From Dehalococcoidia bacterium (GTDB taxonomy: Bacteria; Chloroflexota; Dehalococcoidia; Lucifugimonadales; UBA3495), in assembly GCA_965204685.1 (NCBI GenBank), contig OZ242004.1:1569757-1601756 (forward strand): a DNA stretch of 32,000 bases, given 5' to 3'. The notes beneath the pieces are model-generated. The model was not told where the DNA came from and searched no databases. It was given only the letters and a program-made list of their open reading frames with translations. Position numbers and translations under genes: made by a program. Shown in pieces: positions 626-26,400 of the stretch. Each line of letters starts with the position of its first letter. The first letter of the stretch is position 1.

Positions 626-1814
626 GCCCTCACGCGTACCCGGTTTGGTGGCGTTTGATGGTGAAGAGGTTGTGAGGTGGGTCGGGTGTAGCGAGGTAGA
701 ATTCGTAACCCAGGTGCAGGATGCCCAACTTCCCACGGGAGCACACCTGGCGTCGGAAGGTTGGAGATGCCCGCATCCCCATCAATATCAGCAGGCAGCA
801 GGCCAAAAGCAGGGCCACCAGCAACCGTTGCAGCCGGTCGGTGGTGGTTACGGTGCTCCGGTTCAGCGCGAAGCGTTGCTTACCATCCTTGAAGTACTGC
901 TCCGGCTGCATCCGCTTCCGATACATGCGCACCGCCTGGCGAGGGTCAGCCAAGGATGTGGCCAGATACCAGGGCTCCCGATGTCCTCGAGCCCAGTAGA
1001 GCACCAGATTGATCACCACCGCGCCGTCGGATCGGTAAAGGGTGCGAGGCCAGAACAGGATACGGCCTTTACGCAGCCGATAGTCTCGTAACCGACCCCG
1101 ATAGTCGGCGCCCTGGACCACCACATCGCCCCTGAGGCGAACCACGTAGTCCACGGGGTAGCCGGTGTGGCGGGGCATCCGTTGCAGAAAGTGGATGAGG
1201 CTGGCCCGTCCGAAACCGCGGTCAGCCAACAGCAGCGGGCGGATGGTGGAGGGCAAATGGCGTAACAACCGCCCGATGAAGAACTCCTCCACTCGGTTCT
1301 GGGAAGGATCCAACTCTGCCGGCGTGGACACCCAGCTGAGCAGGGGCAACCCCCGACCCCGAAAACAGACCGCAGCGAACAAACCGTTTCGCCCCTGACC
1401 CAGATCGGACCAGTCGATCATCATCGGAACCCGCCCCTGCAATCCGGCCGCCTGACAGATTGGTTCCAACAGCGCCGTCTGCACCGCCATGGTGTCAAAG
1501 CCGGTGTTGGACAGAAAGCGAAACGGTCGCTTCTTACGCTGATGATGCGAATAGGGTAATTGGGTCCGCCAGGCCCGCACCAACACCGATATAGCCAGGG
1601 CACGACGCTCCAGAATAGCCACCGTGAGCAGGGCCAGATTGGTCCGACGGGTGGCGCGAAATTGCGGCAATGCGTCGTTCAGAAAGGTGGCGATGCGGTG
1701 ATACCATGACATGGGCGGCCTCCCCAGGGCAGGAATGTGGCGGGTAACCCATTCCCTACCTGGAGAGACCGACCTTTTTCAACCCCTCAACTCAAACTGG
1801 GTACGCGTGAGGGC
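626..1814 (-). mobile_element. IS4-superfamily insertion sequence (about 1.19 kb), apparently intact
   Basis: Terminal inverted repeats read directly: GCCCTCACGCGTACCCGGTTTG at 626-647 and CAAACTGGGTACGCGTGAGGGC at 1793-1814 (21/22 complementary). A single transposase ORF fills the interior, with its stop codon inside the left repeat. Confidence 0.85.
630..1712 (-). CDS. DDE transposase, IS4/IS701-like
   Basis: 360 aa. Contains LLADRGF and the C-terminal YRKRMQPEQYFKDGK, which fits the Y-x2-R-x3-E-x6-K signature of IS4-type DDE transposases. Confidence 0.9.
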   Translation of the reverse strand: MSWYHRIATFLNDALPQFRATRRTNLALLTVAILERRALAISVLVRAWRTQLPYSHHQRKKRPFRFLSNTGFDTMAVQTALLEPICQAAGLQGRVPMMIDWSDLGQGRNGLFAAVCFRGRGLPLLSWVSTPAELDPSQNRVEEFFIGRLLRHLPSTIRPLLLADRGFGRASLIHFLQRMPRHTGYPVDYVVRLRGDVVVQGADYRGRLRDYRLRKGRILFWPRTLYRSDGAVVINLVLYWARGHREPWYLATSLADPRQAVRMYRKRMQPEQYFKDGKQRFALNRSTVTTTDRLQRLLVALLLACCLLILMGMRASPTFRRQVCSRGKLGILHLGYEFYLATPDPPHNLFTIKRHQTGYA

Positions 1815-9845: not shown

Positions 9846-11881
<2,036 letters not shown>

Positions 11882-12220: not shown

Positions 12221-14933
12221 TTATCGACGTTTCGGCCACCGATATTCCCCGGTCAGCAGTATGTGAGCCCAGCCCAGGGGCGAGATGTGGGCCAGCAGCT
12301 CGGGGTCGACCGTCAGGCCGTCGTACTTCCGCTGTCTGATCGCTTCGCTGAGATGCACGGTATTCCAGTAGATTACGATGGCGGCGAGCAGGTTCAGCCC
12401 AGCCATGCGGTAGTGCTGGCCCTCGCTGGAGCGGTCGCGGATTTCGCCCTGGCGCCCGATGCGAAGCGCGTTCTTGAGCGCGTGATGAGCCTCTCCCTTG
12501 TTCAAACCTGTGCTGGCTCGGCGCTGCATATCGGCGTCGAGCAGCCAGTCGACGATGAAGAGCGTTCGTTCGAGCCGCCCGATTTCACGGAGAGCGACGG
12601 CCAGTTCGTGCTGGCGCGGATAGGCGGCGAACTTTCGCAGCAGCTGGCTGGGAGGAAGGGCGCCGCTGGCCAGGGTGGCCGCGACCCGCAGGATGTCCGG
12701 CCAGTTCCGCACGATCACGTCCTCCCGGATCCTGGTGCCGGTCAAACCGATCAACGGTTTCGGAACACGCCGAGGTTCGAACACATGGAGCCGTTTCGAC
12801 GGCAGGTCCCGGATACGCGGGACGAACCGGTAGCCGAGCACGGATGTGACGGCGAAGACATGGTCGGTGAAACCGCCGGAGTCGGCATATTGCTCACGGA
12901 TGCGCCGTCCCGCCTTGGTCATCAGCAACCCGTCGAGGATATAGGGGGCTTCGTTGACCGTGGCCGGGATGGTTTGCGTTGCGAAAGGTCCGAACTGGTC
13001 CGAGACATGGGTATAGGCCTTGAGGCCGGGTTCGCTGCCGTAGCGGGCGTTGACCAGGTTCATGGCTTCGCCCTGGCGCGCGGCTGGAAAGAACTGGCCG
13101 TCGCTGGAGGCGGTAAAGCCCTGGCCCCAGAGCCCGCTCATGGGCAGTTGCGCTTGCGCCTCGATCACCATGGCCAGGGCCTGGTTGATAGCCTCGCTTT
13201 CGATATGCCAGCGCGAGAGGCGCGAGAGCTGGAAGAAGTCATGGATGTTGGAGGCCTCGGCCATCTTGCTGAGACCCAGATTGAGGCCTCCCGCCAGGAG
13301 GACGTTGAGCAGTCCGATGCGGTCTCGGCACGGCGCGCCCGTGCGCAGGTGGGTGAAAGCGTCGGTGAAACCGGTGGCGGCGTCCACCTCCAGCAGGATA
13401 TCGGTGATCCGCACCTCGGGCAGGCGACGGTAGAGGTCGAGCACCAGCTCATCGACGTCCTCGGGCATTGCGCTGGCCGCACGGACGATCCTGAGCTCGC
13501 CCTTCTCGATGGTGCCGCCGGCTATCCTGCCGTGGTGCGCCGCACGGGCGAGGCGTTCCAGACCCTCGCCCAAATGCGCCTTGTGTTCGCCCAACCACTC
13601 CTGGGACTGGTAAGGAACAGCCAGCCGGGCCGTGGTGTGCGCTGCTTCGATGGACACCAGGGCCTGTTTGACATCGTCGTAGCGCCGGGAGTGGGCCAGC
13701 CAGACGTCGCCGGACCGGAAGGCGTCTCGCATATGGAAAAGCGCGGCCACCTCCCAAAGCCGGCGGTCACCGGCGGGCCGGGCGTTCAGATGCTGATGCC
13801 ACCTGGAGTTCGCCGCAGGAAGGTCCGGGGCATGTCCGGCGACCCGGCTGCGATATTTCTCAACGCGGCAACGATGGGTTCGCCGGCGCTGGAAGTCTGC
13901 ATATCCAGCGCGCGCAACATGCGCGGCGCATAGCGCCGGAAGCGGGGCCAGCCCTCAACGACGTGACCCAGGGCATCAGCGGACATGGTGTCAGTGAGTT
14001 GCTCAGCCGCGGCGACAACGCCTTCGAGCTTTTGCCAGCCGCCGGCAGCAGCGACGGCCTCTCCAAGGGGCTGGCCATCTCCTTTTGCCTCAAGAAGCGC
14101 CGCTCCCAGCAGCCTGAAGGAGTGCAGCGTATCCTGCAGCACTGTCCTCGAATCCTGAAGACGCGCATCACAGCGCTGCTTAGCGCTCCGGAAGGTCTGG
14201 CCGACAATCCGGTCGTGGGTCTCGACTACGGCATCGGCGATGGCGCCGCGCCATTCCACGACACAGACGCCAAGGATGGCGAGACGGCGGTTGCTGGAAA
14301 TGTCGCGCAACCCCTCTGCGAAGTAGCGCTCCCCCTGGCGGCGAAGACGGGCAATGCGATGCGCAGGAACGGTTTCCAGAAGATCTGAGGGAAGGTCAAA
14401 CCCCTGCAGGAATTCCAGGCGGTCCAGAAGTCCGTTGATATCGGCCGAGTTCCGCCCCACCTCGAACCGGCGTAACCAGACGAACCGGCTCTTGCCGCCG
14501 TCCACTTCCTCGGTGAGCAGGCAGTCGAGCTGCCGGCGCATGGCGTCGTCCAAGCCCACCGCGATGCGCGTCTCTATCCGCCGTTCTGCGGCAACGAGGG
14601 CGTCGGCGCAAAGACGCTCCAGGACCGACGGTCCCGGCAAGATCACCTGCCGGCGCCGGCACTCCTCAACGAACCGCCGGGCCAGCCCCTCATTGGAGCG
14701 TGCCGGTTCCGCCTCGTCCTCGAGCCAGACCTTCAGGTCCCGGGTGGAACGTCCCGAGAACATCTTGTAGCCGTAGTGCGTCGGAGCTCGGCCAGGTGTT
14801 CCCAGCGTGTTTCCTCCCGTATCGCATACCCATCCAGGTCTTCGACGCCCATGCCAAGCTGGGCGGCAATGAAGCGAAGGACGCTTAGGGGAATGGCCTC
14901 CCCCGCCGCCAGAATTCGCCCCGGATACCGGAA
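12221..14933 (-). pseudogene. tnpA: Tn3-family transposase TnpA, decayed (N-terminally truncated, at least two frameshifts)
   Basis: C-terminal ORF 12221-13750 carries SSDGQ, YADSGGFTDHVF, LNKGEAHHALKNAL and LTGEYRW. The middle part is in another frame (13786-14763). The extreme 5' part (FRYPGRILAAGEAIPLSVLRFIAAQLG...REETRWEHLAEL) is in a third frame inside ORF 14733-15098. Confidence 0.9.
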
Positions 14934-15098
14934 GGCGCTGTCTCCCGTCACCGCGCGCTTGCCGGCCATGATCTGGCTGACGCGATTGGTTGGCACGTCA
15001 ATCTGCCTGGCGAAACTCGCCAGCGACACGCCCCTCTCCTCAAGTTCATCCTTCAGGATTTCCCCAGGGTGAACAGCTCGCTTCAACATGGTCGCCAA
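14934..15098 (-). pseudogene. higA: higA-type (XRE HTH) antitoxin gene fragment fused in frame to the tnpA remnant
   Basis: The first 55 codons (HPGEILKDELEERGVSLASFARQIDVPTNRVSQIMAGKRAVTGDSA) have the HigA antidote layout. They then switch abruptly to Tn3 TnpA N-terminal sequence. Confidence 0.6.
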
Positions 15099-15131
15099 TG
15101 CCTCACGCTTCGAATCCCAACTGACCAGTTC

Positions 15132-15575
15132 TCAATGCTGGGCTTCCACCGACCGGGCCGAGCCACCGAGCTCCATGCTGAGCACATTCGCCACCTCCCT
15201 GATTCGGGACCATTTGGCGGCCACGTAATCCGTGGCTTCGTACTTCTGTATCTGCTGCTCTTTCAGACCCAACCGGTCCGCCAGCTCCCTCTGGGTCAGT
15301 CCTCGGGCGATGCGGGCCTTGATGAGAAGTTCGGGGAGGTTGACAGCCTCCCGCAGCGCCTCCACTGGGAACTCCCCCTCCCTGACCGCCTCGTACTCGC
15401 GCAGTTCGGCCTCCAAATCGGCCAACTGGCTGCTGACCGCGTCCACCTGCGCCTGCGCGATCATGGGGTGCATACCATCGACTCCCTCCGGTCTGCTCCT
15501 GAGACCCTCCAGGGTCCGGGCGAAACGCTCGGCCTGCGTGCGGGTTATCCGGTACTGCCGTTCATTCTTGATCAT
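15132..15575 (-). CDS. XRE-family HTH protein, antitoxin-like
   Basis: 147 aa. C-terminal HTH (ARGLTQRELADRLGLKEQQIQKYE). Overlaps the upstream gene by 14 bp. Confidence 0.75.
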   Translation of the reverse strand: MIKNERQYRITRTQAERFARTLEGLRSRPEGVDGMHPMIAQAQVDAVSSQLADLEAELREYEAVREGEFPVEALREAVNLPELLIKARIARGLTQRELADRLGLKEQQIQKYEATDYVAAKWSRIREVANVLSMELGGSARSVEAQH

Positions 15576-16011
15576 CGGCGCCTCCCAGATTCACTGCGAC
15601 TATGCCCTTACTCCCGCCGGTCTCCCGATCCGTCTGGAAGAATTCGAGAAACGACATCCCCTCCACTGTGGCTCCCAGCGAGGCGGGGAACAACTCACCC
15701 AGATACCTGGTCTTCTGGGCCGCCCTGCCGGCATCGAACTGCAGCAGCACCGGGTCCAGAAGTTCCGGATCCACCCCCTCCTCGTCCCAGCAGACATCGA
15801 AGTCGTTGGGGATCTCCTTGCTCGTCACGAAACTGCCGTCGATGTACACGGTGCGGCAACCGGCCCGCCTTAGGCTGTCCATGGCCATCTCCAGTCCGTC
15901 CAGAAGCTGTCTGCGCCATGGGGTGTTGCCAAACCTTGTCCTCACCTCATCCCATGTGGCCCAGTGAACCCCCGGCGGCAGCAGACCATCCACATCGAAC
16001 TGCGGTATCAT
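15562..16011 (-). CDS. minimal nucleotidyltransferase-fold protein (DUF6932-like), toxin-like partner
   Basis: 149 aa. GLLPPGVHWATWDEV start and YIDGSFVTSKEIPNDFDV, which fits the G-S ... D-x-D pol-beta-type NTase signature. Confidence 0.6.
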   Translation of the reverse strand: MIPQFDVDGLLPPGVHWATWDEVRTRFGNTPWRRQLLDGLEMAMDSLRRAGCRTVYIDGSFVTSKEIPNDFDVCWDEEGVDPELLDPVLLQFDAGRAAQKTRYLGELFPASLGATVEGMSFLEFFQTDRETGGSKGIVAVNLGGADDQE

Positions 16012-16086
16012 GACCCAACGGTAACATTGTGTCGTATTCGGGTCAACAACTCCAGTCGTTCTCGAGGTGAGCCGGCAAAACTATTG

Positions 16087-16515
16087 ATGACAATTCTGCA
16101 GGAACAGTTGACCCAAAACAGCACTGCTTCGCCAAACGGCCGTTACGTCATCGGACGAGGAACCCTCGAATTTGAAACGAATTGGAGCAAAGCATCCAGC
16201 ACCTCCCTCCACGTTTACAACGATCCAGCATCCATCAACGGCGTCGCATTGGGTTCTCGAGAATGGGCGGATATCGACCAAGTGGTTAGGGCCAGATCCT
16301 TGGATTACACTTCGCGCTCCCGAACTGCGCCCCGGGGAAGCATAGTGGTACTCCGCAACGTACATGGCTTCTACGCCGCCATTCAGTTGCTCGATATCAA
16401 GGACGATACACCCGGCGATGACTGCGACGAGCTGCGGTTCCGATACGCGATCCAAGCTGACGGCTCCGACAGCTTTGACGTGCTGAGCGCCGATAGGCCG
16501 CCAACGGGCAATTAA
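16087..16515 (+). CDS. hypothetical protein (142 aa)
   Basis: I prefer the start at ATG 16087, because the track start at 15964 overlaps the divergent gene. No motif recognised. Confidence 0.5.
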   Translation: MTILQEQLTQNSTASPNGRYVIGRGTLEFETNWSKASSTSLHVYNDPASINGVALGSREWADIDQVVRARSLDYTSRSRTAPRGSIVVLRNVHGFYAAIQLLDIKDDTPGDDCDELRFRYAIQADGSDSFDVLSADRPPTGN

Positions 16516-16587
16516 AATTCCAGGCAAAGCCCAGTATGCCGGAGCTCGTGCTACGCAAACTCTCCCGTCAATAGGGCACTAACCGCC

Positions 16588-17142
16588 ATGCGGCTATCCA
16601 CAACCGAACCAATGAACGACCCAGTTGGGCTTTGGTCGCTACAACTGGAGCTAATGTCCACTGCCGAAGCAGTGCTTGGACCCCGGGATGGAGCGAAGAA
16701 AATCTATCAGCCGCAGTTTACCGACAATGGTCCGTTGCTGCGGAATACCCCCGCCATGGATGGGGCCTATGTGGAATTGAGCCGAGCCGGCCAATCATAC
16801 TGGCCCACTGTGGTCTTCGAACTGGCCCATGAAACGGTACACCTCCTCAATCCTATCACCGGGGATACCAACAACCTTGAGGAAGGAATAGCCGTAGCAT
16901 TTTCGTTACACATTCAACCGTCGTATGGTATCCGTATACCAATTTCAATACCGTCGTACGTTCATGCCCTGCAACTCGTCCTTGCATTGCCGGACGATCC
17001 ACTCAAAGCAGCAAGACGCGTGCGCCAGCAAGTAGGAGCCCTGAGTACAGTTACCCCGCACTCACTGTCAAAACTGTTCCCAGCGGCCCCCAGCGCTGTC
17101 TTGGAAGAACTGTCCGGCCAGTTCATCAGGAATCCGTCCTGA
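16588..17142 (+). CDS. putative zinc metallopeptidase-like protein (HExxH)
   Basis: 184 aa. ELAHETVHLL (HExxH) followed 12-13 residues later by NLEEG, a gluzincin-like arrangement. Confidence 0.5.
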   Translation: MRLSTTEPMNDPVGLWSLQLELMSTAEAVLGPRDGAKKIYQPQFTDNGPLLRNTPAMDGAYVELSRAGQSYWPTVVFELAHETVHLLNPITGDTNNLEEGIAVAFSLHIQPSYGIRIPISIPSYVHALQLVLALPDDPLKAARRVRQQVGALSTVTPHSLSKLFPAAPSAVLEELSGQFIRNPS

Positions 17143-17373: not shown

Positions 17374-17910
17374 GTGCATGAAATGGACCACCACGAGTAC
17401 GGCGACAATTACCAAGCGCATCTGCTGGAGCAATACAAGCTCTACGTGGAAATGGCCGACCGGATCAGTCAGCGCCGGGACCAATCGAACCGCTTCTACG
17501 CAGGGTTGGTGTCGGCAATCATTGCCCTCCTAGTAGTGATGGGCAGGATTGGTGTGTCGGAAAACACGTGGAGCGTTGCTCTGCTCCTGGCCGGGTTGCT
17601 CGGCGGCTCCTTGTCGGTCGTCTGGTTTATCAACCTCGGCTCCTATCGTGCACTCAACTCCGCCAAATTCCGTGTCATAAATGGGATGGAATCGCAGTTG
17701 CCTTACGCTGGATACAGCGAAGAATGGGCCTACCTGCGCCCTCCAGGGGGACCGCCAAGGTACTTCCAGCTCACGAGGATCGGACGATATGTGCCCCTGC
17801 TCACATTGGCACTCTTTATGGGGATCGTAGCCTATTCAATATATTCCATGATCCATGGCTTTGGCACCGCGGCTGAGCCGACTGCCCGCCTCATCGGAGG
17901 GACCTGGTGA
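17374..17910 (+). CDS. small membrane protein, SLATT-like layout (helical head plus 2 adjacent TM plus C-terminal TM)
   Basis: 178 aa, GTG start (an ATG at 17383 is also possible). LLEQYKLYVEMADRISQRRDQSNRFY helix, then two hydrophobic helices, then YRALNSAKFRVINGME and a final TM. Confidence 0.6.
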   Translation: MHEMDHHEYGDNYQAHLLEQYKLYVEMADRISQRRDQSNRFYAGLVSAIIALLVVMGRIGVSENTWSVALLLAGLLGGSLSVVWFINLGSYRALNSAKFRVINGMESQLPYAGYSEEWAYLRPPGGPPRYFQLTRIGRYVPLLTLALFMGIVAYSIYSMIHGFGTAAEPTARLIGGTW

Positions 17911-18709: not shown

Positions 18710-20240
18710 CCAGCCTTAAACCCGAATCCACCGAAGGGATACCTCAGCGGCGGAGAGACAAGGATGAGGCGTCTGGGAACGGGTCGGCGGGGATCTGATG
18801 TCAGTGAGATGGACGATCCGGAGTGTGGCTACCACGCCAAGGGGATGTTAGCCGCCGGTGGTGGGGCTGGGCGATTTTCAGCGTAGACCGCAGGCAGAGA
18901 CCGTCAGGACACCAGCCTGGGGGCGGATCGGCCAGGCGTGGGGGTATTGTGGACAGGCCAAACGCCGAGGGCGGCGTCAGGAAGAGAGTGGCAGGGCGCG
19001 CAATCTCGCCAGGGCGGTGCCGAAATGATTTTGCCAGGGCCAGTCCCGGGGGAGATGCTGGGTGAGGCGGCGGGCCTTGCGGGTGAGGCGTCCGGCTAGG
19101 GAGAAGAAGCGTCGCCGGAGGGTCTTGGTGGTGGCGACCGTCCACCCAGGCCGACGCGCGTTGTCCAACGGGCCAGTTTATGGGCGATGACCTCGCATGT
19201 CTCGCATCAAGTGCTGGGCAGGCTATGGACAGCCCGGCGGCATTGACGGGGAAACGGCCCGATGGCAGGTGGTTGAGCCTCACGCCATATTTCAGGTGGC
19301 GGATGGCGTTCTCGATCTCCGCGTGGCGGAGATGGTCCCCTTCCAGATCCAGCGTGTCGCCGTCTTGGTCGGTGATGAAGGTGTAGCAGCTGTAGCTGGT
19401 GAACAGGGCCAGTTGGTAGCCGGGGGTGGGTTTCACCCGCTGGACGATGAGCCGCACCGGCACAGCGTCGGGTCTCACTGGCGAAGGGAGCGTAAATGGC
19501 CTCGGCTACGTCGGCCGCGCCCTCCATCCAGTACGGAATGGGCGTCCAGTCTTCCTTGGGTATGGCCTTGATGAGGTTGCGCATCTGGGTGTGCTGGCCG
19601 ACAGTGACAGAGTAGCGGACCCTCATCTGGCGGCAGATGGCGACAATGGCGTGGGCGTAGAAGCCGCTGTCGGCTCGCACGATAAGTGGTCCGGTGGCTC
19701 CTGCATAGTGCGCTCGACGATGGTTTCACCCAGAAAGCGGGCGGTGCCCCGGGCCGTGTTGGCTCGTCCCTTCCGCAGCCTTGCCATCAATCCGCTATAG
19801 GGAGACCGGTGCTGGCGGCGACGACCAGCACCGGGTGATAGCCCCGCTGTCTGGCGTAGTTGTGGCGCTGTGCGCAGCGCGGTGGCGGCTATGCAGTCAC
19901 CACCGGCCGGCGCCGACGCCACCAGCGTCAGTAGCTTGTTTCCTCCATTGGCCTGACCCGGCGCATCCCCAAGTCAACGTGGCGGTCCACCAACTGGCCC
20001 AGTCCCAGATGACGGGCCAAGGTGACCCGCAGGATCAGCCCCGCATTGGCCACCAAGTGGTGATCGTCGAAGGCGACATGGATGCGGTCAGGGCGCTTAG
20101 ATGGTAGCATACGTCGAGCGCTCCCCGTTTCATGATGGTTTTCGTTGTCAAAAACCATTATCCGAAGTGCGGGAGTACCTTCTCATCCCTTCACCGCGCA
20201 CGTAGCCTCACCCTTTCGGTCGATTGGGATTTAGATTTCG
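18710..20240 (-). mobile_element. IS1380-family element, copy B, decayed, inverted relative to copy A (boundaries approximate)
   Basis: End sequences match copy A: CCAGCCTTAAACCCGAATCCACCGAAGG at 18710 onward and CCCTTTCGGTCGATTGGGAT at 20211 onward. Confidence 0.75.
18977..20158 (-). pseudogene. IS1380-family transposase, multiply frameshifted
   Basis: Fragments lie in several minus-strand frames: DRIHVAFDDHHLVANAGLIL (20158 downward), ADSGFYAHAIVAICRQMRVRYSVT, VPVRLIVQRVKPTPGYQLALF, HAEIENAIRHLKYGVRLNHLPSGRF, and TKTLRRRFFSLAGRLTRKARRLTQHLPRDWPW. Confidence 0.8.
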
Positions 20241-20369
20241 CTCGGGCGCATGGCAAGAATAAGAAACTAACTGTAAGGTTCGGCTTGTTCAGCCGGATAC
20301 GCCAGGTGATTAAAGCTTTGGCCAAACCAACGCTGCGCATCTCGCGAATAACCGGGAGCATCGGCAACA

Positions 20370-20669
20370 ATGGCTACGTACAACTGCAGGCCAATCTCGA
20401 CAGATGGGATCACACTGCCGGCGGAACTTGCAGCGCTCGTCGAGCGCCTTGCAGAAAACAATCACGATCACTGGGCGCGCCAGCGAATTGATGAGGGGTG
20501 GACCTATGGCCTTCAGAGGGACGATGCCCTAAAGACGCATCCAGACCTGGTACCGTATGGAGACCTTCCGGAAGAGGAGAAAGAATACGATCGGACCTCC
20601 GTCGTTGAGACCGTGAAGGTAATTCTCATGCTGGGTTACGAGATCGTGCCCAGGGGAACCCAAGACTAA
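20370..20669 (+). CDS. RyR (ryanodine-receptor repeat) domain protein, 99 aa
   Basis: LAENNHDHWARQRIDEGWTYGLQRDDALKTHPDLVPYGDLPEEEKEYDR...LGYEI is a near-textbook match to the bacterial RyR-domain consensus as I remember it. Confidence 0.85.
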   Translation: MATYNCRPISTDGITLPAELAALVERLAENNHDHWARQRIDEGWTYGLQRDDALKTHPDLVPYGDLPEEEKEYDRTSVVETVKVILMLGYEIVPRGTQD

Positions 20670-20673
20670 GACG

Positions 20674-22512
20674 ATGGCAAAATACCAGTCAGAATCGCTA
20701 AACGAGATCCGCAATCGGAGCGATTGCGCACGGGCGGTGGTCTTCCTGCACGGCTTTTCCGGCAACCGTGATGACACCTGGGATAACCTCCCATTTCGGT
20801 TCGGCACAGCTGATGGGACTTGGGATATCTACACGCTGGGTTACGCGACCACTTTAGGCCCGGACTTACTGGGTTTTTGGTCGGGTGATCCCGATCTTCC
20901 CATCCTCGCTACCATGCTGAGCACCCAATTTGCGCATGATCCGCTCAGGCGTTACCAATCGCTCGCACTCGTGGCGCACAGCATGGGCGGCCTGGTGGTA
21001 CAGCGAGCTTTGATGGACGACTCGGAATTGGCCGACCGTATGCGAACTGTCATCCTGTTCGGGACACCAAGCGCAGGGGCCCGCAAGGCGTCTTGGATGC
21101 AGAAATGGAAACGGCAGCTAAGAAACATGGCGCCCGGTAGCGAGTTCATCACATCGCTGAGACGGGATTGGGATGTCCGATTCGGAATTAACCCTCCCTT
21201 CGACCTCAGGGTCGTCGCAGGCGAGCAAGATCGGTTTGTGTCTGCTGAGTCCAGCCTCGGACCCTTCCCCAAGGAATTTCTTCATGTCATCTCCGGGGAT
21301 CACCACACTATGCTCCGGCCATCCGGCCAACGTTCTCCGACCATGAGACTACTGTTGTCGGCCTTGTGTGGTGAACCTACGGAGGGTGAAACCTCGGAGC
21401 CGTTCACTGCGGTGGCGGAGGTACCGGACTTTGCGGCACCTGCGCTGATCGACGAGCACGGAGAAAAGATGTCGGAGGAGGACATTGTGCGCGCCGCTCT
21501 CGCGTGGGAGCAAAACGGCAGGCGCGACCAGGCAATCGCGCTGCTTCAACGCTATCAAGCACTCGGGACCGACGTCCAGGGCACCCTGGCAGGTCGGATA
21601 AAGCGACTATGGTTGGAAAACGAAGACCCGGGTTCCGCACAGCACGCGCTTGACCTATATCGAGGTGCCCTTGACAGGGCACGAGAGAGCTGTGACAGGG
21701 ATCAGATTTACTACCATGCCATCAACATTGCGTTTCTTGAATTAGCTGCCTTCAACCGCGTCGGCAGCACCAGCAAGATGGCGGCATTGGCTCTTGAAAA
21801 CGCCAGCCTTGTTGAAGCGAGTGTGTGGAGCGTCGCCACTCAGGCTGAGGCAAACCTGTACTTGGGTCGGTTCGAGCGGGCTTTGGAGCTTTACCGCAGC
21901 CTGTCCGAAATCGAAACGGAGCCGTGGCAGTACGCTTCAACAGCTCTACAGGCGGGGCAAATCGCCATCAAACTTGACAACCCCGAACTGGTGGATAGTT
22001 TGGAGGAGATCTTCACGCCCACCGTAAACCAGGCGAACGGGATATTCGTCGGCTACAGTTCGACGGACGCGGAGTGGACAGACCGGCTTCGCCAGATGTT
22101 GGCACCCTTTCTGCGGGACGGCGATATCGAGCTGAAACTGTGGGTCGCCGACGAAGACGCTCAACCTGACGCCCTACGGCGCGAACGGCTTCAGTCCGCA
22201 CTCGAATCGGCAGGTGTTGCGGTCGTTCTGGTCAGCGCATCGTTCCTGGGGTCGGAGTACGTCATGGAGCACGCTTTGTCGCAGATCGAGAGCGTTGCAT
22301 CCGACGGGACCATCCAGCTGGCCTGGGTATACGTATCCCATGCCCCCTATGAGGTCGCGGAGCTTGAGCCGTTCGAGGCGGCTCACGATACATCCCAACC
22401 CCTGTACGCCCTTTCACGCCCGGAGCAGGACGAAATCCTTTTGAACATCGCGCGAGACATCAAGGCTGCAGCACTCGGAGCGACAGGGCGGTTCCGGTCC
22501 CAGGAACTGTAG
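20674..22512 (+). CDS. three-domain protein: alpha/beta-hydrolase, DUF4071-like helical repeats, C-terminal TIR
   Basis: 612 aa.
- N-terminus: VVFLHGFSG, nucleophile elbow AHSMGG, later GEQDRFV and GDHHTM (Ser-Asp-His candidates).
- Middle: LAGRIKRLWLE...ALDLYRGA...YYHAINIAFLE resembles DUF4071 (MAP3K TRAF-binding-like) repeats.
- C-terminus: IFVGYSSTDAEW...VAVVLVSASFLGSEYVMEHAL is TIR_2-like. Confidence 0.8.
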   Translation: MAKYQSESLNEIRNRSDCARAVVFLHGFSGNRDDTWDNLPFRFGTADGTWDIYTLGYATTLGPDLLGFWSGDPDLPILATMLSTQFAHDPLRRYQSLALVAHSMGGLVVQRALMDDSELADRMRTVILFGTPSAGARKASWMQKWKRQLRNMAPGSEFITSLRRDWDVRFGINPPFDLRVVAGEQDRFVSAESSLGPFPKEFLHVISGDHHTMLRPSGQRSPTMRLLLSALCGEPTEGETSEPFTAVAEVPDFAAPALIDEHGEKMSEEDIVRAALAWEQNGRRDQAIALLQRYQALGTDVQGTLAGRIKRLWLENEDPGSAQHALDLYRGALDRARESCDRDQIYYHAINIAFLELAAFNRVGSTSKMAALALENASLVEASVWSVATQAEANLYLGRFERALELYRSLSEIETEPWQYASTALQAGQIAIKLDNPELVDSLEEIFTPTVNQANGIFVGYSSTDAEWTDRLRQMLAPFLRDGDIELKLWVADEDAQPDALRRERLQSALESAGVAVVLVSASFLGSEYVMEHALSQIESVASDGTIQLAWVYVSHAPYEVAELEPFEAAHDTSQPLYALSRPEQDEILLNIARDIKAAALGATGRFRSQEL

Positions 22513-22852
22513 GGGAGCCGATTTGGATCCGCGACAGCGCGTCTTTGACATCTTGATCAACCGGCATGACCACAGAGAACGGACACTCATCCAGGCAATG
22601 CCCTAGCGAGGCAGGCCGATGCACGCCAAGGCCGCGCTCCGGTGAGCGGAGTGAAAATCAGTATCGAAAACATCAGTTGGCGCACGGAGATGATGAACGG
22701 CTGTCCGAGGACGGTTTTCACCGCAAATGTGCTCTGCGGATTTCAGGGCAATCGAAAGTCCTATGTTGTTCCAGCATAGCTTCGCACGTTTTGTGCTATG
22801 TTAGTCAAGCCGGCACGTGCTGCGCTTCTTGGACGTTCATGGGGATCACGCG

Positions 22853-23422
22853 ATGCGCTCACTACCCAACCGCCGAAAGGTTTTCATCAGCTTCCACAGG
22901 TCAGACATGGAGTACAAGGAACGTTTCGTCTCGATGCTGCATGGCCACGTAGTCGACGGATCCGTTGACACAGGCGACATCATCGACAGCAATCTCCCAC
23001 TGGACGAAATCCGGCGCAGGATACGGGACGATTATATAGCCGACGCCAACGTCACGGTGGTTCTGATCGGCCCATGCACCTGGCAGAGGAAACATGTGGA
23101 TTGGGAGATCAGTTCCAGCCTTAGGCATACCCGAAGCAATTCCAGGTGCGGGCTGCTCGGGATTCGGCTGCCGCACCATACCGATTTCCGCAACGAGAAT
23201 TATGATCCTCACTTGTTGCCTCCAAGATTGGCGGACAACTGCGGAGGTCCGGATCCGTACGCTCAAATCCACCGGTGGTCGGGAAGTTCGAACCAAGTCA
23301 ACACCGTCCTTCGCTGGATCGACCAAGCACTGGAAAGAAGCCGGCGGGGCAACCCAGTTAACAACAGGCGTCAGTTCGGGGAGAATCGGAGAGGTGATTG
23401 CAGGTCAGGTTGGCGAAACTGA
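22853..23422 (+). CDS. ThsB-type TIR-like protein (DUF1863), paralog 1
   Basis: I prefer the start at ATG 22853 (GGGGA 7 nt upstream). KVFISFHRSDMEYKERF, VTVVLIGPCTWQRKHVDWEISSSL and GLLGIRLP reproduce the ThsB layout. Confidence 0.8.
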   Translation: MRSLPNRRKVFISFHRSDMEYKERFVSMLHGHVVDGSVDTGDIIDSNLPLDEIRRRIRDDYIADANVTVVLIGPCTWQRKHVDWEISSSLRHTRSNSRCGLLGIRLPHHTDFRNENYDPHLLPPRLADNCGGPDPYAQIHRWSGSSNQVNTVLRWIDQALERSRRGNPVNNRRQFGENRRGDCRSGWRN

Positions 23423-23554
23423 TAACCGGGCGGCTCAGGATCCGCCAGTTGAACCGATCGCACTCCGCAAATTCATAGCATTGCGCGGCGGACCATAGCC
23501 CCTCATACGAGACCCCGCTTGGGACTACCCTGGCAACCACGAAAGGAACGTGCC

Positions 23555-23908
23555 ATGAAAACGCTGGGGCAGAGGATCAGGGAACTGCGGCAAGGGAAGG
23601 ATTTGTCCCTCCGTGAGTTAGCCGGCAAGATCGGCGTGTCGTCCGCGTTTATGTCCGATGTAGAACTCGGTCGTCGGAACCCGTCCGACCAGCACATGGC
23701 GGCCATAGCCCACGTTTTGGAGACCTCGCTGGAAGAGTTACAACAATTCGACACGCGACCGCCCCTGCGGGAATTCCAGAGAGCGACGCTATCGGACCCC
23801 GGCTACGGCATTGCATTCCGGCAGATGATGGAAAGAAATATCAGCTCAGAGGAACTCCTCCAATTTATTCGTGAACGTGATCAGCGAAGGCGGGAAGAAG
23901 GGTACTGA
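23555..23908 (+). CDS. XRE-family HTH transcriptional regulator
   Basis: I prefer the start at ATG 23555 (AAGGAA upstream). LGQRIRELRQGKDLSLRELAGKIGVSSAFMSDVELGRRNPS is a classic HTH_3 motif. Confidence 0.85.
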   Translation: MKTLGQRIRELRQGKDLSLRELAGKIGVSSAFMSDVELGRRNPSDQHMAAIAHVLETSLEELQQFDTRPPLREFQRATLSDPGYGIAFRQMMERNISSEELLQFIRERDQRRREEGY

Positions 23909-23910
23909 CG

Positions 23911-24614
23911 ATGCGGACCTTTCCGGCCGAATCCGGCCCCTTTTTGCAACGGTACCATTTCGCGGCCGAGGAATTTGAGGTAATCGCGTCGCAAGAGCTG
24001 CGCTCGGTTGATCTGCTTCCGGATGTTCCGGCGCCGATACGCGTGGACCGTTTCATCGAGAAACGGTTCGACATCGTCCCGGAATACGACGATCTTCCCC
24101 ACGGATTGGTGGGTTTCACGAGGTTCGATTTGAAGGGCCCGGCAGAGGTGGTAGTCGCGCGCGATCTGGCGGATGACGGTGGCCAGGCCGCGGAGCGGAG
24201 GATAAAAGCACCCTCGCCCACGAGGCAGGACACATTGTTCTGCACGGACAGCTATTCACGTCGCAATTACGGGACACTACCCGTCCACTGATCGAAATCG
24301 ATGTTGACGTTGCCAATCGAAAAGTTCTCTGCCGAGACGACAACGCGAGCAAGCGCCGTTATGACGGACGCTGGTGGGAGTACCAAGCCAACCAGATGAT
24401 TGGGGCTCTCCTGTTGCCTCGTGCGCTGGTGCTCAAGGCTCTGGAACCCCTGATGACCCTACGGGGACAATTGGGAATGGGCATTTTGGAAGAAGCGAAG
24501 CGTGATGAAGCGGCTGAGACTCTGGCCGATACATTCGATGTGAATCCCGTCGTCGCGCGCATCAGGATCGACCAGATATTCCCCGCGTCGATAGGCGGGC
24601 AGTTGCCGCTGTAA
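23911..24614 (+). pseudogene. ImmA/IrrE-family zinc metallopeptidase, frameshifted
   Basis: The first frame ends at 24291. The HEAGH motif (STLAHEAGHIVLHG) and the rest of the domain (WWEYQANQMIGALLLPR...) are in another frame that runs to 24614. Frames reconcile if the A4 run at 24204-24207 were A5. Start is 2 bp after the XRE stop. Confidence 0.75.
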
Positions 24615-24650
24615 AAATTTTTCGACCGTATTTCCACAATGCAAGCGGAC

Positions 24651-24679
24651 TTGCGTTGATATGTATCAAGTGAGATAAT
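24651..24679 (+). promoter_or_regulatory. possible sigma70-like promoter for the ThsB-like/E2-like pair
   Basis: TTGCGT (24651-24656), a 17-nt spacer, then GATAAT (24674-24679). AAGGAG at 24716-24721 lies 9 nt before ATG 24731. Pattern match only. Confidence 0.35.
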
Positions 24680-24730
24680 CAAATGGTGGGAACCCATTGG
24701 GAATCGAAATCTGATAAGGAGCACCAGACA

Positions 24731-25426
24731 ATGGTTGACAAGGTACGTCATCGGACGTTCATAACTTACCACCAGGAAGACCAGGACGAGGTGGACGAGT
24801 TCATCAAGACGTTCGACCACGAGCGCGACGTATTCATCGCTCGGGCGGTCGGAAGCGACGAAACGATGGAAGACCTGGTCGGTGGCGATGATGACGACTA
24901 CATCATGCGCCAGATCAGGGAAAAATACCTGAACGACACCACCGTGACCCTGGCCTTCATCGGGGAGCGCACGTGGACCAGGAAATTTGTCGATTGGGAA
25001 CTGGCCGCCAGTCTGCATCAGGGTCCGTCGGCGGGCAAACCCAATGGGTTGCTGGCGATCTTGTCGCCCAAGCTAACGAAAGCGATCCTGCCGGACCGGT
25101 TCGTGGACAACTGGGAACCCGGATACGCCCACTTTTACCCATACCCCAAGAATCGGACACAGCTCTCCAATTGGATCGAAGAAGCGTTCAAAGCCCGAGA
25201 GGATGAGAAACAGCGAGAACTCATCAAAAACGGCAGGCGCAAGCTCAGGCGGAACCTCTCTCCGGATCAGCCAGCCAGCCGGCCAACCGTGCAGCCCAAA
25301 CCGGACGGATCGTATTCTGATCCCAACAAGGCCGCCAGAACTGCCGCGGTCGCCACAGGAACGGCTGCCGCCACTCGTTCCGCGACGCCCCGACCGCCGT
25401 ACCTCCACCGCGACAAGAAGCGATGA
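24731..25426 (+). CDS. ThsB-type TIR-like protein (DUF1863), paralog 2, with a disordered basic/Pro-rich tail
   Basis: I prefer the start at ATG 24731 (strong RBS) over 24683. RTFITYHQEDQDEVDEF, VTLAFIGERTWTRKFVDWELAASL and GLLAILSP are colinear with paralog 1. Confidence 0.8.
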   Translation: MVDKVRHRTFITYHQEDQDEVDEFIKTFDHERDVFIARAVGSDETMEDLVGGDDDDYIMRQIREKYLNDTTVTLAFIGERTWTRKFVDWELAASLHQGPSAGKPNGLLAILSPKLTKAILPDRFVDNWEPGYAHFYPYPKNRTQLSNWIEEAFKAREDEKQRELIKNGRRKLRRNLSPDQPASRPTVQPKPDGSYSDPNKAARTAAVATGTAAATRSATPRPPYLHRDKKR

Positions 25427-25995
25427 ACTTGACATTGGACGATGTCCAGTGGCTCGAAAAACACCAGCCGCGTCTTGCGGCTGGTTTGATCGCGCCCTCG
25501 ATCGTAGGGACTTTGGATATCTCAGCCTACTACGACAAGGAAGCGCGAAAAATCGTGACGGGCCCTTATTTTGCCTTCGGACGCCAGGATACTTTCATTG
25601 CCGACCAATTCGTTATCGACATACGGCTGGAAGAAAAGGATAACAACGGCTGGCCCAAAGTCTACGAGGTTGGGCAACGGCACCGGTTGATTGCTGCTCG
25701 CGAAGGCATGCCTTCGGTAGATCTGCACTTTTATGCCGACGGGCATGCCTGCCTCGGCTTTGACTACCCATGGGATCCTCCTCTTACCTTGGACCAATTC
25801 ATGGCTAGCCTGGTCGAGCCCTTCTTTTACCGGCTGGCCTATGTGGGCCTCTACGGAATAGCAGCGGCGCGCGCCGATCTGTGGCCCGAACATTCCCATG
25901 GCAAGGCGGGTTATCAGGAGCATAAAAAGATAGTCGCGCGGGGGAATGCATCCATTCGCCGGAATCAGATTGGTGAACGGCCATTCGGTTTCTAA
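25423..25995 (+). CDS. hypothetical protein with E2/UBC-like active-site layout (prokaryotic E2-like candidate)
   Basis: 190 aa. ATGA overlap with the upstream gene. DLHFYADGHACLGFDYPWDPPLTLDQFMASLVEPFF resembles the H-x-N...G-x-C-L...W-x-P...(helix) UBC catalytic region, preceded by an N-terminal helix and beta-strand-like segments. From recollection only. Confidence 0.45.
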   Translation: MNLTLDDVQWLEKHQPRLAAGLIAPSIVGTLDISAYYDKEARKIVTGPYFAFGRQDTFIADQFVIDIRLEEKDNNGWPKVYEVGQRHRLIAAREGMPSVDLHFYADGHACLGFDYPWDPPLTLDQFMASLVEPFFYRLAYVGLYGIAAARADLWPEHSHGKAGYQEHKKIVARGNASIRRNQIGERPFGF

Positions 25996-26400
25996 GCCCG
26001 AATTCGCCGATGTGATTTGGTGTTGAGATTCAAGTGCGTGATGGGAGCCTCGGAAAAGGCAACAGGCCGTGATGCTGACCGGGATAGACGATGAGAGTGT
26101 TGTTACCGCGCGCATCGCCTCAAATCAAATATTGCCGAACTCGGTCGCGCGAGTCTCCTATCGGACCTACCGGCGAAATTGGAGAACTGGACACCGTCGT
26201 CGGAAAGACCCACCGCAACGCATCGGCCAACCCGCTCTGGGCATCCTTCGGGCACCCTGCACCTTATCGATACCCATCTTTGGTTCGCCAAAGGGCTAAT
26301 ATGTGAACTGCTGGCAGGCCGCTTTCGTTCGCCAGGATCACGGCGGCTTTCCTCGGCCCAAGCACCTTCGCCACGCCATTGCCACAACTCTCGTCCAATC

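What the first reader, a model, noticed from the sequence alone, without database searches (positions are those of the whole stretch)
20370..22512. RyR-domain protein tightly coupled to an alpha/beta-hydrolase / DUF4071-like / TIR protein: candidate uncharacterised TIR signalling module
Seen in sequence:
- A 99-aa stand-alone RyR-domain ORF stops 4 bp before a 612-aa ORF.
- That ORF combines a Ser-hydrolase elbow (AHSMGG), a helical-repeat middle and a C-terminal TIR-like domain (FVGYSSTD...VVLVSASFLGSEY).

Established:
- Bacterial TIR domains are NAD-consuming enzymes that make cyclic-ADPR-type signals in Thoeris.
- Eukaryotic ryanodine receptors are reported to be modulated by cADPR.

Inference:
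- A minimal RyR domain next to a TIR enzyme could be a sensor, buffer or sponge for a TIR-derived nucleotide.
- The hydrolase domain could be the effector or a signal-degrading activity.
- I do not know of this gene pair as a named defence system.
Basis: partly seen in the sequence, partly recalled or inferred. Interest (0 to 1): 0.85.

Follow-up and report, generated by a model that had tools for sequence, protein, structure and literature searches.

The report
RyR protein inside a Thoeris-like operon
A small bacterial protein related to a domain of animal ryanodine receptors is encoded in tight coupling with a TIR-type antiviral signalling system, which suggests that bacteria use as a built-in regulator the same kind of protein that phages use to destroy or soak up TIR immune signals.

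Summary
ORF 20370-20669 is a 99-aa RyR-domain protein (Pfam E 1.6e-32). It ends 4 nt before a 612-aa protein made of a Ser-Asp-His alpha/beta-hydrolase, a TPR-S domain and a TIR domain.

The interpretation needs three corrections:
- **Middle domain.** It is TPR-S, the same Pfam family I found in ThsI, the validated effector of type VIII Thoeris.
- **Fused TIR.** In this window the catalytic Glu is Ala534, so the likely signal maker is the ThsB-type TIR gene just downstream (22817-23422), outside the given coordinates.
- **Larger cassette.** The pair belongs to a 6.4-kb cassette: RyR, hydrolase-TPR-S-TIR, ThsB, CapH, frameshifted CapP, second ThsB, E2-like.

RyR sits directly upstream of the hydrolase gene in all 10 related loci examined. 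RyR is also fused to TPR-S in at least 28 protein clusters, several next to TIR genes. A May 2026 preprint shows that phage RyR-domain proteins cleave or sequester 2'/3'cADPR. The four ligand or catalytic residues it names are conserved here.

Best reading: a Thoeris-like system whose RyR subunit binds the TIR-made nucleotide, most likely as a buffer or off-switch. A co-receptor role is not excluded. It is a new variant of a known kind.

The parts
20370..20669 (+). Stand-alone single-repeat RyR-domain protein (99 aa), the predicted binder of the ADPR-type nucleotide. His32, Trp35, His57 and Asp74 correspond to RyDEP H75, W78, H100 and D117.
   Evidence: Pfam RyR E 1.6e-32. Alignment to RyDEP and its homologues H1-H8. 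The four residues are at least 98% invariant in 121 homologues. AF2 model pLDDT 84, TM 0.82-0.87 to 3NRT/6UAG.
20674..21378 (+). Alpha/beta-hydrolase domain of the 612-aa protein (aa 1-235), the predicted effector head. Triad Ser103 (codon 20980-20982), Asp186, His210.
   Evidence: Abhydrolase_6, PGAP1 and Abhydrolase_1 hits. Asp186 and His210 are invariant; Ser103 is kept in 115 of the 116 sequences that cover it, out of 121. The model matches lipase B, type II thioesterases and esterases.
21436..22023 (+). TPR-S helical-repeat domain (aa ~255-450), the predicted sensor or transducer module. It is shared with Thoeris type VIII ThsI.
   Evidence: Pfam TPR-S E 1.5e-11. Yersinia ThsI (L213:2695-3981) has TPR-S at E 2.6e-17. 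Lys310, Asn351 and Trp385 are invariant across hydrolase-headed, ThsI-type and RyR-fused TPR-S proteins.
22036..22512 (+). C-terminal TIR domain (aa ~455-612), with the catalytic Glu replaced by Ala534 (codon 22273-22275). Predicted catalytically inactive, possibly a scaffold.
   Evidence: TIR_2 at 27.6 bits. Profile alignments to PdTIR 3H16, 7UXR and AT1G72930 3JRN place the family's Glu at position 534. Glu in 96 of 107 homologues. Ala in the window and eight homologues: its nearest relatives P0001-5, 7 and 8, plus the more distant P0084. Val in P0006.
22817..23422 (+). ThsB-type stand-alone TIR protein (201 aa) that keeps the catalytic Glu (VDWEI). The likely signal synthase of the module.
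   Evidence: Pfam ThsB_TIR E 3.9e-17. PADLOC ThsB and PDC-M50B. Alignment to B. cereus ThsB 6LHY/9B7D pairs VDWEI with VRYEI. An intact copy follows the 612-aa gene in 8 of 10 loci.
23519..23908 (+). CapH-like HTH transcriptional regulator.
   Evidence: PADLOC capH E 4e-12, Pfam HTH_31 and HTH_3.
23911..24611 (+). CapP-like (IrrE/M78 metallopeptidase) gene, frameshifted in this window near 24186-24210.
   Evidence: The intact 234-aa orthologue in L065 (HEAGH motif) hits PADLOC capP at 4.8e-7 and Pfam Peptidase_M78 at 4.7e-5. tblastn splits it over frames 1 and 3 of the window.
24683..25426 (+). Second ThsB-type TIR protein (247 aa), catalytic Glu present (VDWEL).
   Evidence: Pfam ThsB_TIR E 3.3e-14. 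PADLOC ThsB. Translation.
25423..25995 (+). E2-like (CBASS Cap2-type) protein whose start overlaps the ThsB2 stop by 4 nt.
   Evidence: PADLOC E2 models at E 2.1e-13 and 6.7e-11. No Pfam hit.
19891..26295 (.). Extent of the conserved cassette. It is 92% nt-identical and collinear with L065 5216-11623, and the flanks differ. Transposase remnants at 18801-20158 lie on and just outside its left edge.
   Evidence: blastn of the window against L065. DDE_Tnp_1_4 fragment.

Best explanation
The locus is a Thoeris-like TIR signalling defence cassette, related to type VIII Thoeris, with an added RyR subunit.

**Proposed sequence of events (inferred)**
1. On infection, the stand-alone ThsB-type TIR (22817-23422) converts NAD+ into an ADP-ribose-derived signal.
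2. The 612-aa protein is the effector. Its TPR-S domain perceives or transduces the signal and switches on the N-terminal Ser-Asp-His alpha/beta-hydrolase, which is lipase-, esterase- or thioesterase-like.
3. In this window the effector's C-terminal TIR has lost the catalytic Glu. It probably serves only for assembly, or for docking of ThsB.
4. The 99-aa RyR protein is translationally coupled to the effector gene and probably homodimerises into a Repeat12-like module. It binds the same nucleotide and acts as a built-in sink, either a sponge or a RyDEP-like glycosidase. The sink would set the activation threshold and terminate signalling. This is comparable to ring nucleases in type III CRISPR.

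**Shown here**
- Domain identities and catalytic-residue status.
- Conserved gene order and the 4-nt coupling.
- Recurrent RyR/TPR-S/TIR association, including fusions.

**Inferred**
- Defence function and the identity of the signal.
- That RyR binds the signal.
- The direction of its effect.
For: **Domains and residues**
- Domain calls and the Ser103/Asp186/His210 triad.
- RyR H32/W35/H57/D74 match RyDEP's H75/W78/H100/D117 at identical spacing, and are at least 98% invariant.
- ThsB keeps its catalytic Glu while the fused TIR does not.

**Link to validated Thoeris**
- The TPR-S family is shared with validated ThsI. Yirmiya et al. 2025 (bioRxiv 10.64898/2025.12.03.692087) propose that this TPR perceives cADPR.
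- More distant hydrolase-TPR-S proteins sit beside ThsI-type TPR-S proteins and TIR genes in Acidobacteriota, Planctomycetota and Bacteroidota.

**Precedent for RyR binding TIR signals**
- PMC13232231 shows that phage RyR-domain proteins bind 2'/3'cADPR at nanomolar affinity or cleave it.

**RyR association with the module**
- RyR lies directly upstream of the hydrolase-TPR-S gene in 10 of 10 Dehalococcoidia-type loci: a 4-nt gap in every locus with gene calls, except 3 nt in L068. The flanks are unrelated.
- In a Terriglobia locus (L005), RyR follows a ThsI-type gene.
- RyR is fused to TPR-S in at least 28 clusters, and two of three contexts examined have TIR genes adjacent.

**RyR looks accessory**
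- Sister clades lack RyR, or carry a PGDYG-domain partner instead. This fits a modulator better than an essential receptor.
Against: - No experiment exists on any host-encoded RyR protein.
- RyDEP's dyad is also conserved in non-catalytic sponges, so sponge and enzyme cannot be told apart.
- RyDEP targets 2'/3'cADPR, whereas the validated TPR-S effector ThsI answers to canonical cADPR. The signal here is unknown.
- The window's ThsB shows no BLAST similarity to type VIII ThsB.
- RyR fused to SLATT_3, ion channels, TrkA_N and TPR-S-cyclase proteins looks like a sensor domain driving outputs. That favours the co-receptor rival.
- The window RyR is a two-helix single repeat. It lacks the N-terminal helical hairpin of the phage RyDEPs.
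- That TPR-S senses the ligand is itself only a prediction.
Confidence: 0.5

Rival explanations
1. RyR is the ligand-binding co-receptor of the effector. A RyR dimer binds the TIR-made nucleotide and, through contact with TPR-S, activates the alpha/beta-hydrolase. TPR-S would then be a scaffold or transducer rather than the sensor.
For: - RyR occupies the N-terminal position of at least 28 TPR-S fusion clusters. Some continue into a class III cyclase-like domain and sit next to TIR genes.
- RyR is fused to the pore-forming SLATT_3 effector domain (P0338), and tandem RyR repeats are fused to ion-channel, TrkA_N and peptidase C39 modules.
- A 4-nt coupling is typical of subunits of one complex.
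- The fused RyR heads are 52-61% identical to the window protein.
Against: - Closely related hydrolase-TPR-S(-TIR) proteins work without RyR, or with a PGDYG partner instead.
- ThsI has TPR-S and no RyR.
- The only demonstrated activities of free RyR proteins are sequestration and cleavage (PMC13232231).
Confidence: 0.25
2. One reading: the TIR domain of the 612-aa protein is itself the NAD-consuming signal generator, and RyR senses or buffers its product within a self-contained two-gene module.
For: - Most family members (96 of 107) keep the catalytic Glu in the fused TIR.
- One locus (L067) has only a remnant of the ThsB gene, yet keeps the pair.
Against: - In this window and in P0001-P0008 the Glu is Ala or Val.
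- An intact ThsB gene follows the pair in 8 of 10 loci.
Confidence: 0.08
3. The module is not antiviral. It would be a physiological NAD+/ADPR-linked signalling or lipid/ester metabolism unit that merely shares domains with defence systems.
For: - No defence assay exists.
- One locus (L209) is flanked by housekeeping genes.
- PADLOC has no system model for it.
Against: - In most loci the cassette lies among transposases and other defence-type genes: CapH/CapP, E2-like, extra ThsB copies, SLFN/AlbA_2.
- Flanks vary around a conserved core.
- The TPR-S plus ThsB pairing is validated as defence in type VIII Thoeris.
Confidence: 0.07
4. RyR is a hitch-hiking anti-Thoeris gene of viral or mobile-element origin that happens to lie next to the TIR system, with no role in it.
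For: - Viral contigs encode roughly 95-100-aa single-repeat RyR proteins 50-64% identical to it.
- Phage RyR proteins are anti-Thoeris (PMC13232231).
Against: - The position is identical, with a 3-4-nt gap, in 10 of 10 loci over about 60-90% protein divergence.
- The 612-aa family is absent from viral contigs.
- Fusions to TPR-S exist.
- No TIR or TPR-S genes lie near the viral copies.
Confidence: 0.05

Closest known systems
Type VIII Thoeris (ThsB + ThsI; Yirmiya et al., bioRxiv 10.64898/2025.12.03.692087)
   Same: - A ThsB_TIR-family TIR gene lies next to an effector built as an enzymatic head plus a TPR-S domain.
- I recovered the validated Yersinia locus (L213) and confirmed TPR-S in ThsI.
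- Lys310, Asn351 and Trp385 of TPR-S are shared.
   Different: - The head is an alpha/beta-hydrolase, not the CMP-hydrolase-like domain.
- A TIR domain is fused to the effector, and it is degenerate here.
- A RyR gene is added.
- The ThsB sequences are not detectably similar by BLAST.
- The signal is unknown.
RyDEP, phage RyR-domain defence-evasion proteins (PMC13232231)
   Same: - Same Pfam family, PF02026.
- The His/Trp/His/Asp ligand and catalytic residues are conserved at the same spacing.
- Expected ligand class: TIR-derived cADPR isomers.
   Different: - Encoded in a bacterial chromosome inside the TIR operon, not in a phage.
- A canonical two-helix single repeat (99 aa) without the N-terminal hairpin.
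- Only 45% identity, over 51 residues.
- The presumed role is self-regulation rather than evasion.
Bacteroides thetaiotaomicron putative ryanodine receptor (PDB 3NRT, 6UAG) and RyR Repeat12
   Same: - Best structural match: TM 0.82-0.87 and about 50% identity.
- A single repeat that crystallises as dimers mimicking Repeat12.
- Human RyR3 Repeat12 has been solved with ATP, ADP or AMP-PCP bound.
   Different: - No function is known for the Bacteroides protein.
- The eukaryotic domain is part of a Ca2+ channel.
Ring nucleases of type III CRISPR (Crn1-3, self-limiting Csm6). Analogy from my own knowledge.
   Same: A host-encoded activity that removes a cyclic nucleotide immune signal, in order to set a threshold or reset the system.
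   Different: - Unrelated fold and chemistry.
- The analogy is functional only, and untested here.
CapH/CapP-regulated and Cap2-primed CBASS/Thoeris operons
   Same: CapH-like HTH, CapP-like M78 peptidase and an E2-like protein lie in the same cassette. Yirmiya et al. report Thoeris operons with Cap2/Cap3.
   Different: - CapP is frameshifted in this window.
- The E2-like protein is paired with a second ThsB and no E1 or JAB was seen.

Membership tests
Thoeris (TIR signalling defence) | TIR-domain protein with an intact catalytic Glu that can act as the signal synthase | tested here: met
   ThsB1 (22817-23422) hits ThsB_TIR at E 3.9e-17. Its VDWEI aligns with VRYEI of BcThsB 6LHY. ThsB2 has VDWEL.
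Thoeris (TIR signalling defence) | Adjacent effector with a signal-sensing domain | tested here: inconclusive
   The effector candidate has TPR-S, the same Pfam family as in validated ThsI. Ligand sensing by TPR-S is itself only predicted.
Thoeris (TIR signalling defence) | Phage-triggered production of an ADPR-derived signal, and protection from phage | not testable with these tools
   Needs expression, phage challenge and LC-MS.
Type VIII Thoeris | ThsI architecture: CMP-hydrolase-like head plus TPR-S | tested here: not met
   TPR-S is present, but the head is an alpha/beta-hydrolase and a TIR is fused C-terminally. True ThsI-type proteins occur beside distant relatives.
Type VIII Thoeris | ThsB of the canonical-cADPR-producing clade | tested here: inconclusive
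   No BLAST alignment to one of the two published type VIII TIR sequences, the Pseudomonas-scaffold ThsB. Same Pfam family. The product is not testable here.
RyR domain (PF02026) | Profile match and two-helix repeat fold | tested here: met
   E 1.6e-32. TM 0.82-0.87 to 3NRT.
RyDEP (RyR-domain defence evasion protein) | Conserved H75/W78/H100/D117 equivalents | tested here: met
   H32, W35, H57 and D74, at least 98% invariant in 121 homologues.
RyDEP (RyR-domain defence evasion protein) | Virus-encoded, acts against host Thoeris | tested here: not met
   It lies in a chromosomal cassette, co-oriented and coupled with TIR and TPR-S genes in 10 of 10 loci, including 3-Mb genomes. The partner family is absent from viral contigs.
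RyDEP (RyR-domain defence evasion protein) | Binding or cleavage of 2'/3'cADPR | not testable with these tools
   Needs EMSA, ITC, TLC or LC-MS.
Catalytically active TIR NADase/cyclase (the fused TIR domain) | Catalytic Glu on helix alpha-C | tested here: not met
   Ala534 at the position aligned to the Glu of PdTIR, 7UXR and AT1G72930. Glu in 96 of 107 homologues.
Serine alpha/beta-hydrolase | GxSxG nucleophile elbow plus Asp and His | tested here: met
   HSMGG with Ser103, plus Asp186 and His210. The triad is conserved across the 121 sequences: Asp186 and His210 are invariant, and Ser103 is kept in 115 of the 116 that cover it. The fold matches lipases and thioesterases.
CapH/CapP regulator pair | HTH repressor plus intact M78/IrrE metallopeptidase | tested here: not met
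   CapH is present at E 4e-12. CapP is frameshifted in the window, though intact in L065.

The most novel reading that the evidence does not exclude
The 99-aa RyR protein would be the first host-encoded regulator that sequesters or hydrolyses a TIR-derived cyclic ADP-ribose signal. It would be a built-in threshold setter or off-switch of Thoeris-type immunity. Such host RyR/TPR-S modules would also be the evolutionary pool from which phage anti-Thoeris RyDEP proteins, and ultimately the nucleotide-binding Repeat12 of ryanodine receptors, were drawn.
Probability: 0.35. Interest if true: 0.85.

Novelty: new variant of a known kind. Interest (0 to 1): 0.7.

Why it matters
TIR signalling is shared by bacteria, plants and animals. 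In the papers I could search, no host-encoded factor that removes or buffers a Thoeris signal is described. The only enzymes reported to cleave 2'/3'cADPR are phage RyR-domain proteins (May 2026 preprint).

A bacterial RyR protein hard-wired to a TIR/TPR-S effector, and fused to TPR-S elsewhere, has three consequences:
- It gives a concrete and easily testable candidate for such a regulator.
- It suggests where the phage counter-defence proteins came from.
- It adds a prokaryotic, genetically tractable setting for the old question of whether RyR-type domains bind cADPR-like nucleotides.

The locus also adds an alpha/beta-hydrolase-headed effector, with a degenerate fused TIR, to the TPR-S branch of Thoeris.

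Tried and rejected
- **First genome scan.** The genome-contig scan with the single 612-aa protein found nothing. The alignment-based scan worked.
- **JGI metagenome scan.** It returned only distant relatives, because the close clade is in ENA assemblies.
- **PADLOC and NCBIfam.** They gave no system-level name. DefenseFinder models for Thoeris V-XI were not available.
- **Burroughs & Aravind 2020 (J Bacteriol).** This paper defines TPR-S but could not be read. I cannot exclude that it already lists RyR among the domains associated with TPR-S.
- **EDS1/PAD4 parallel.** I considered a parallel with plant lipase-like TIR-signal receptors. Foldseek gave only generic lipases and thioesterases and no EDS1-family hit, so I dropped it.
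- **Promoter and terminator scans.** Counts were at chance level.
- **Which residue is the TIR catalytic Glu.** I considered E528 or E532. Both vary across homologues. The HMMER alignments to solved TIRs place the catalytic Glu at 534, with a one-residue insertion.
Full report
**1. Observation**

The two ORFs are as described. ORF 20370-20669 (+) encodes 99 aa. ORF 20674-22512 (+) encodes 612 aa. Four nucleotides separate the TAA from the next ATG.

- The small protein matches Pfam RyR over the whole model (E 1.6e-32).
- Its AF2 model (pLDDT 84, two long helices) superposes on the Bacteroides thetaiotaomicron single-repeat 'putative ryanodine receptor' 3NRT/6UAG (TM 0.82-0.87, about 50% identity). 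It also superposes on human RyR3 Repeat12, which has been solved with adenine nucleotides bound.
- The large protein has three domains: Abhydrolase_6 (aa 22-177), TPR-S PF20308 (aa 270-355, E 1.5e-11) and TIR_2 (aa 457-555, 27.6 bits).
- Its AF2 model (pLDDT 78) shows an alpha/beta-hydrolase, an all-helical middle and a flavodoxin-like C-terminal domain. Foldseek matches for the hydrolase are lipase B, type II thioesterases and esterases.

**2. Catalytic residues**

- **Hydrolase.** In 121 family members Asp186 and His210 are invariant, and Ser103 is kept in 115 of the 116 that cover it. The hydrolase is probably active.
- **Fused TIR.** HMMER alignments of a family profile to solved TIR domains (PdTIR 3H16, 7UXR, AT1G72930 3JRN) put the canonical catalytic Glu at family position 534. 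That position is Glu in 96 of 107 homologues. It is Ala in the window and eight homologues: its nearest relatives P0001-5, 7 and 8, plus the more distant P0084. It is Val in P0006. The fused TIR of this window is therefore predicted to be inactive as an NADase or cyclase.
- **Downstream TIR genes.** The next gene (22817-23422) is a ThsB_TIR-family protein (E 3.9e-17). Its VDWEI aligns with VRYEI of B. cereus ThsB. A second ThsB paralogue (24683-25426) has VDWEL.

**3. The cassette**

Window 19891-26295 is 92% nt-identical and collinear with L065, while the flanks differ. The gene order is:

1. RyR
2. hydrolase-TPR-S-TIR
3. ThsB1
4. CapH-like HTH (PADLOC capH, E 4e-12)
5. CapP-like M78 peptidase. 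It is intact in L065, with an HEAGH motif, capP at 4.8e-7 and Peptidase_M78 at 4.7e-5. It is frameshifted in the window.
6. ThsB2
7. E2-like protein (PADLOC E2, E 2e-13)

The surroundings hold IS21, DDE transposases and Tn3 remnants.

**4. Conservation of the pair**

- The 612-aa protein has hundreds of homologues. So does the RyR protein, and the two lists share matching contig lengths.
- I inspected ten Dehalococcoidia-type loci: the window, L001, L065, L066, L067, L068, L209, L210, L211 and L212. In all ten the RyR gene lies directly upstream. The gap is 4 nt in every locus with gene calls except L068, where it is 3 nt.
- ThsB follows intact in eight of the ten.
- The flanks range from housekeeping genes to transposases and dynamin-like GTPases.
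- The core is therefore a mobile three-gene module.

**5. Relationship to known systems**

- Yirmiya et al. (bioRxiv 10.64898/2025.12.03.692087) validated type VIII Thoeris. Its effector ThsI is 'CMP hydrolase and TPR' and it responds to canonical cADPR. The authors note that Burroughs and Aravind had predicted this TPR to act in TIR signalling.
- I recovered the validated Yersinia locus (L213, 100% identical ThsB). ThsI carries Pfam TPR-S (E 2.6e-17) and ThsB is ThsB_TIR.
- More distant hydrolase-TPR-S proteins (30-40% identity; Acidobacteriota, Planctomycetota, Bacteroidota) lack the fused TIR. They sit beside ThsI-type TPR-S proteins and TIR_2 or ThsB_TIR genes.
- An alignment of TPR-S from hydrolase-headed, ThsI-type and RyR-fused proteins keeps Lys310, Asn351 and Trp385 invariant.
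- The 612-aa protein is therefore a Thoeris-type effector of the TPR-S branch, with a different enzymatic head.

**6. RyR and TIR signals**

- PMC13232231 shows that phage RyR-domain proteins (RyDEP) either hydrolyse the ribose-ribose bond of 2'/3'cADPR, using the dyad H75/D117 with W78 and H100 contacting the ligand, or sequester these signals at nanomolar affinity. That paper treats only viral proteins.
- The window protein has H32, W35, H57 and D74 at the same spacing. These residues are at least 98% invariant in 121 homologues.
- It differs in being a canonical two-helix single repeat, without the N-terminal hairpin of the phage proteins.
- Viral contigs encode roughly 95-100-aa single-repeat RyRs that are 50-64% identical, with no TIR or TPR-S nearby. 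The 612-aa family is absent from viral contigs.

**7. Independent genomic links between RyR and TPR-S/TIR**

- **Neighbourhood.** In a Terriglobia locus (L005) RyR follows a ThsI-type TPR-S gene, divergent from a hydrolase-TPR-S gene and near a HEAT-TIR gene.
- **Fusions found from the RyR side.** A RyR profile search of 1.84 billion representatives gave 10,020 hits. I scanned 20 of the best 150 with Pfam. Four are N-terminal RyR fused to TPR-S. One is RyR fused to SLATT_3. Others are tandem RyR fused to channel, TrkA_N, peptidase C39 or AAA modules.
- **Fusions found from the fusion side.** A search with the RyR-TPR-S profile found at least 28 clusters carrying PF02026 + PF20308. Some also carry a class III cyclase-like domain.
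- **Context of the fusions.** In two of three contexts examined, TIR genes are adjacent.
- **Similarity.** The fused RyR heads are 52-61% identical to the window protein.

**8. Mechanism**

All readings share one inferred event: the RyR dimer binds the TIR-derived ADPR-type nucleotide.

I favour a sink role, as sponge or glycosidase, that sets the threshold or resets the system. The reasons are:
- This is the only demonstrated activity of free RyR proteins.
- RyR is dispensable in sister clades. One clade has a PGDYG-domain partner instead.
- The effector already carries TPR-S.

The main rival is a co-receptor role. It is supported by RyR fusions to output domains and by the tight coupling. 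Sequence cannot separate the two, but a delta-RyR phenotype would.

The fused TIR, which is dead in this window but intact in most relatives, may act as an assembly or docking domain. In Glu-bearing relatives it could amplify the signal or deplete NAD+.

**9. Novelty and limits**

- In the searchable literature only PMC13232231 links RyR domains with Thoeris, and only for phages.
- The Burroughs & Aravind 2020 paper could not be read, so a prior mention of RyR with TPR-S cannot be excluded.
- The system is best classed as a new variant of a known kind: Thoeris of the TPR-S branch, with three additions. These are an alpha/beta-hydrolase head, a fused and degenerating TIR, and a host-encoded RyR subunit.
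- No function was tested experimentally.

Noticed in passing
window 23911-24611: The CapP-like M78/IrrE metallopeptidase gene downstream of the CapH-like HTH is split between frames 1 and 3 near 24186-24210. The orthologue in L065 (9244-9948, 234 aa, HEAGH motif) is intact. This is either a pseudogene or an assembly error.
   Followed up: yes
window 24683-25995: A second ThsB-type TIR (247 aa) overlaps by 4 nt an E2-like protein (190 aa; PADLOC E2, E 2e-13; no Pfam hit). This may be a Cap2-like priming arrangement for a TIR protein. The pair is conserved in L065.
   Followed up: partly
L069:5534-5998, L009:8815-9204, L070:6835-7290: In the roughly 50%-identical Acidobacteriota-type clade of hydrolase-TPR-S-TIR proteins, the tightly coupled small partner is a PGDYG-domain protein (PF14083, E 4e-4 to 2.6e-9) instead of RyR. 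It lies upstream in one locus and downstream in the other two. Its function is unknown.
   Followed up: partly
P0338 (442 aa): A single RyR domain 57% identical to the window protein is fused to a SLATT_3 two-TM effector domain. SLATT is the effector type of cADPR-responsive type VII Thoeris.
   Followed up: partly
P0327, P0351, P0408, P0412; L214, L215; GCA_016648615.1: RyR-TPR-S proteins continue into, or are followed by, a class III nucleotidyl-cyclase-like domain (PF00211). Between the two lies a conserved 'AACGxD(I/L)' domain that Pfam did not identify. A large sister family is cyclase plus TPR-S without RyR.
   Followed up: partly
L077:4137-6368, L079:3335-5566: These are 743-aa versions of the hydrolase-TPR-S protein with an extra N-terminal region of about 300 aa, not identified. 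L079 has a TIR_2 gene immediately downstream.
   Followed up: no
L066 1-3812, L068 1-1791: Next to the RyR module in two 3-Mb genomes lie genes with HMUDK_hel, thymidylate synthase and kinase, and MazG domains, which suggest hypermodified-thymidine metabolism. There are also an HTH-Peptidase_M78 fusion and a DUF3368 gene directly upstream of RyR.
   Followed up: no
window 630-1712, 9846-11881, 12221-14763, 18801-20158: The region is dense in mobile-element genes: a DDE_Tnp_1 transposase, IS21 istA/istB, a DUF4158/Tn3-like fragment and degraded DDE_Tnp_1_4 fragments. The window is a variable, insertion-rich region.
   Followed up: partly
window 17374-17910: A 178-aa protein matches Pfam 8xMP (octameric membrane protein family, E 7.8e-33). 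It follows three ORFs with no family match (15069-17142). Any relation to the cassette is unknown.
   Followed up: no
L068 6001-7678: In many homologues (P0102-P0120, about 451 aa) the protein ends after TPR-S. In L068, TIR_2 fragments follow in other frames. The fused TIR therefore appears to be decaying repeatedly within this family, which fits the Glu-to-Ala change in the window.
   Followed up: partly
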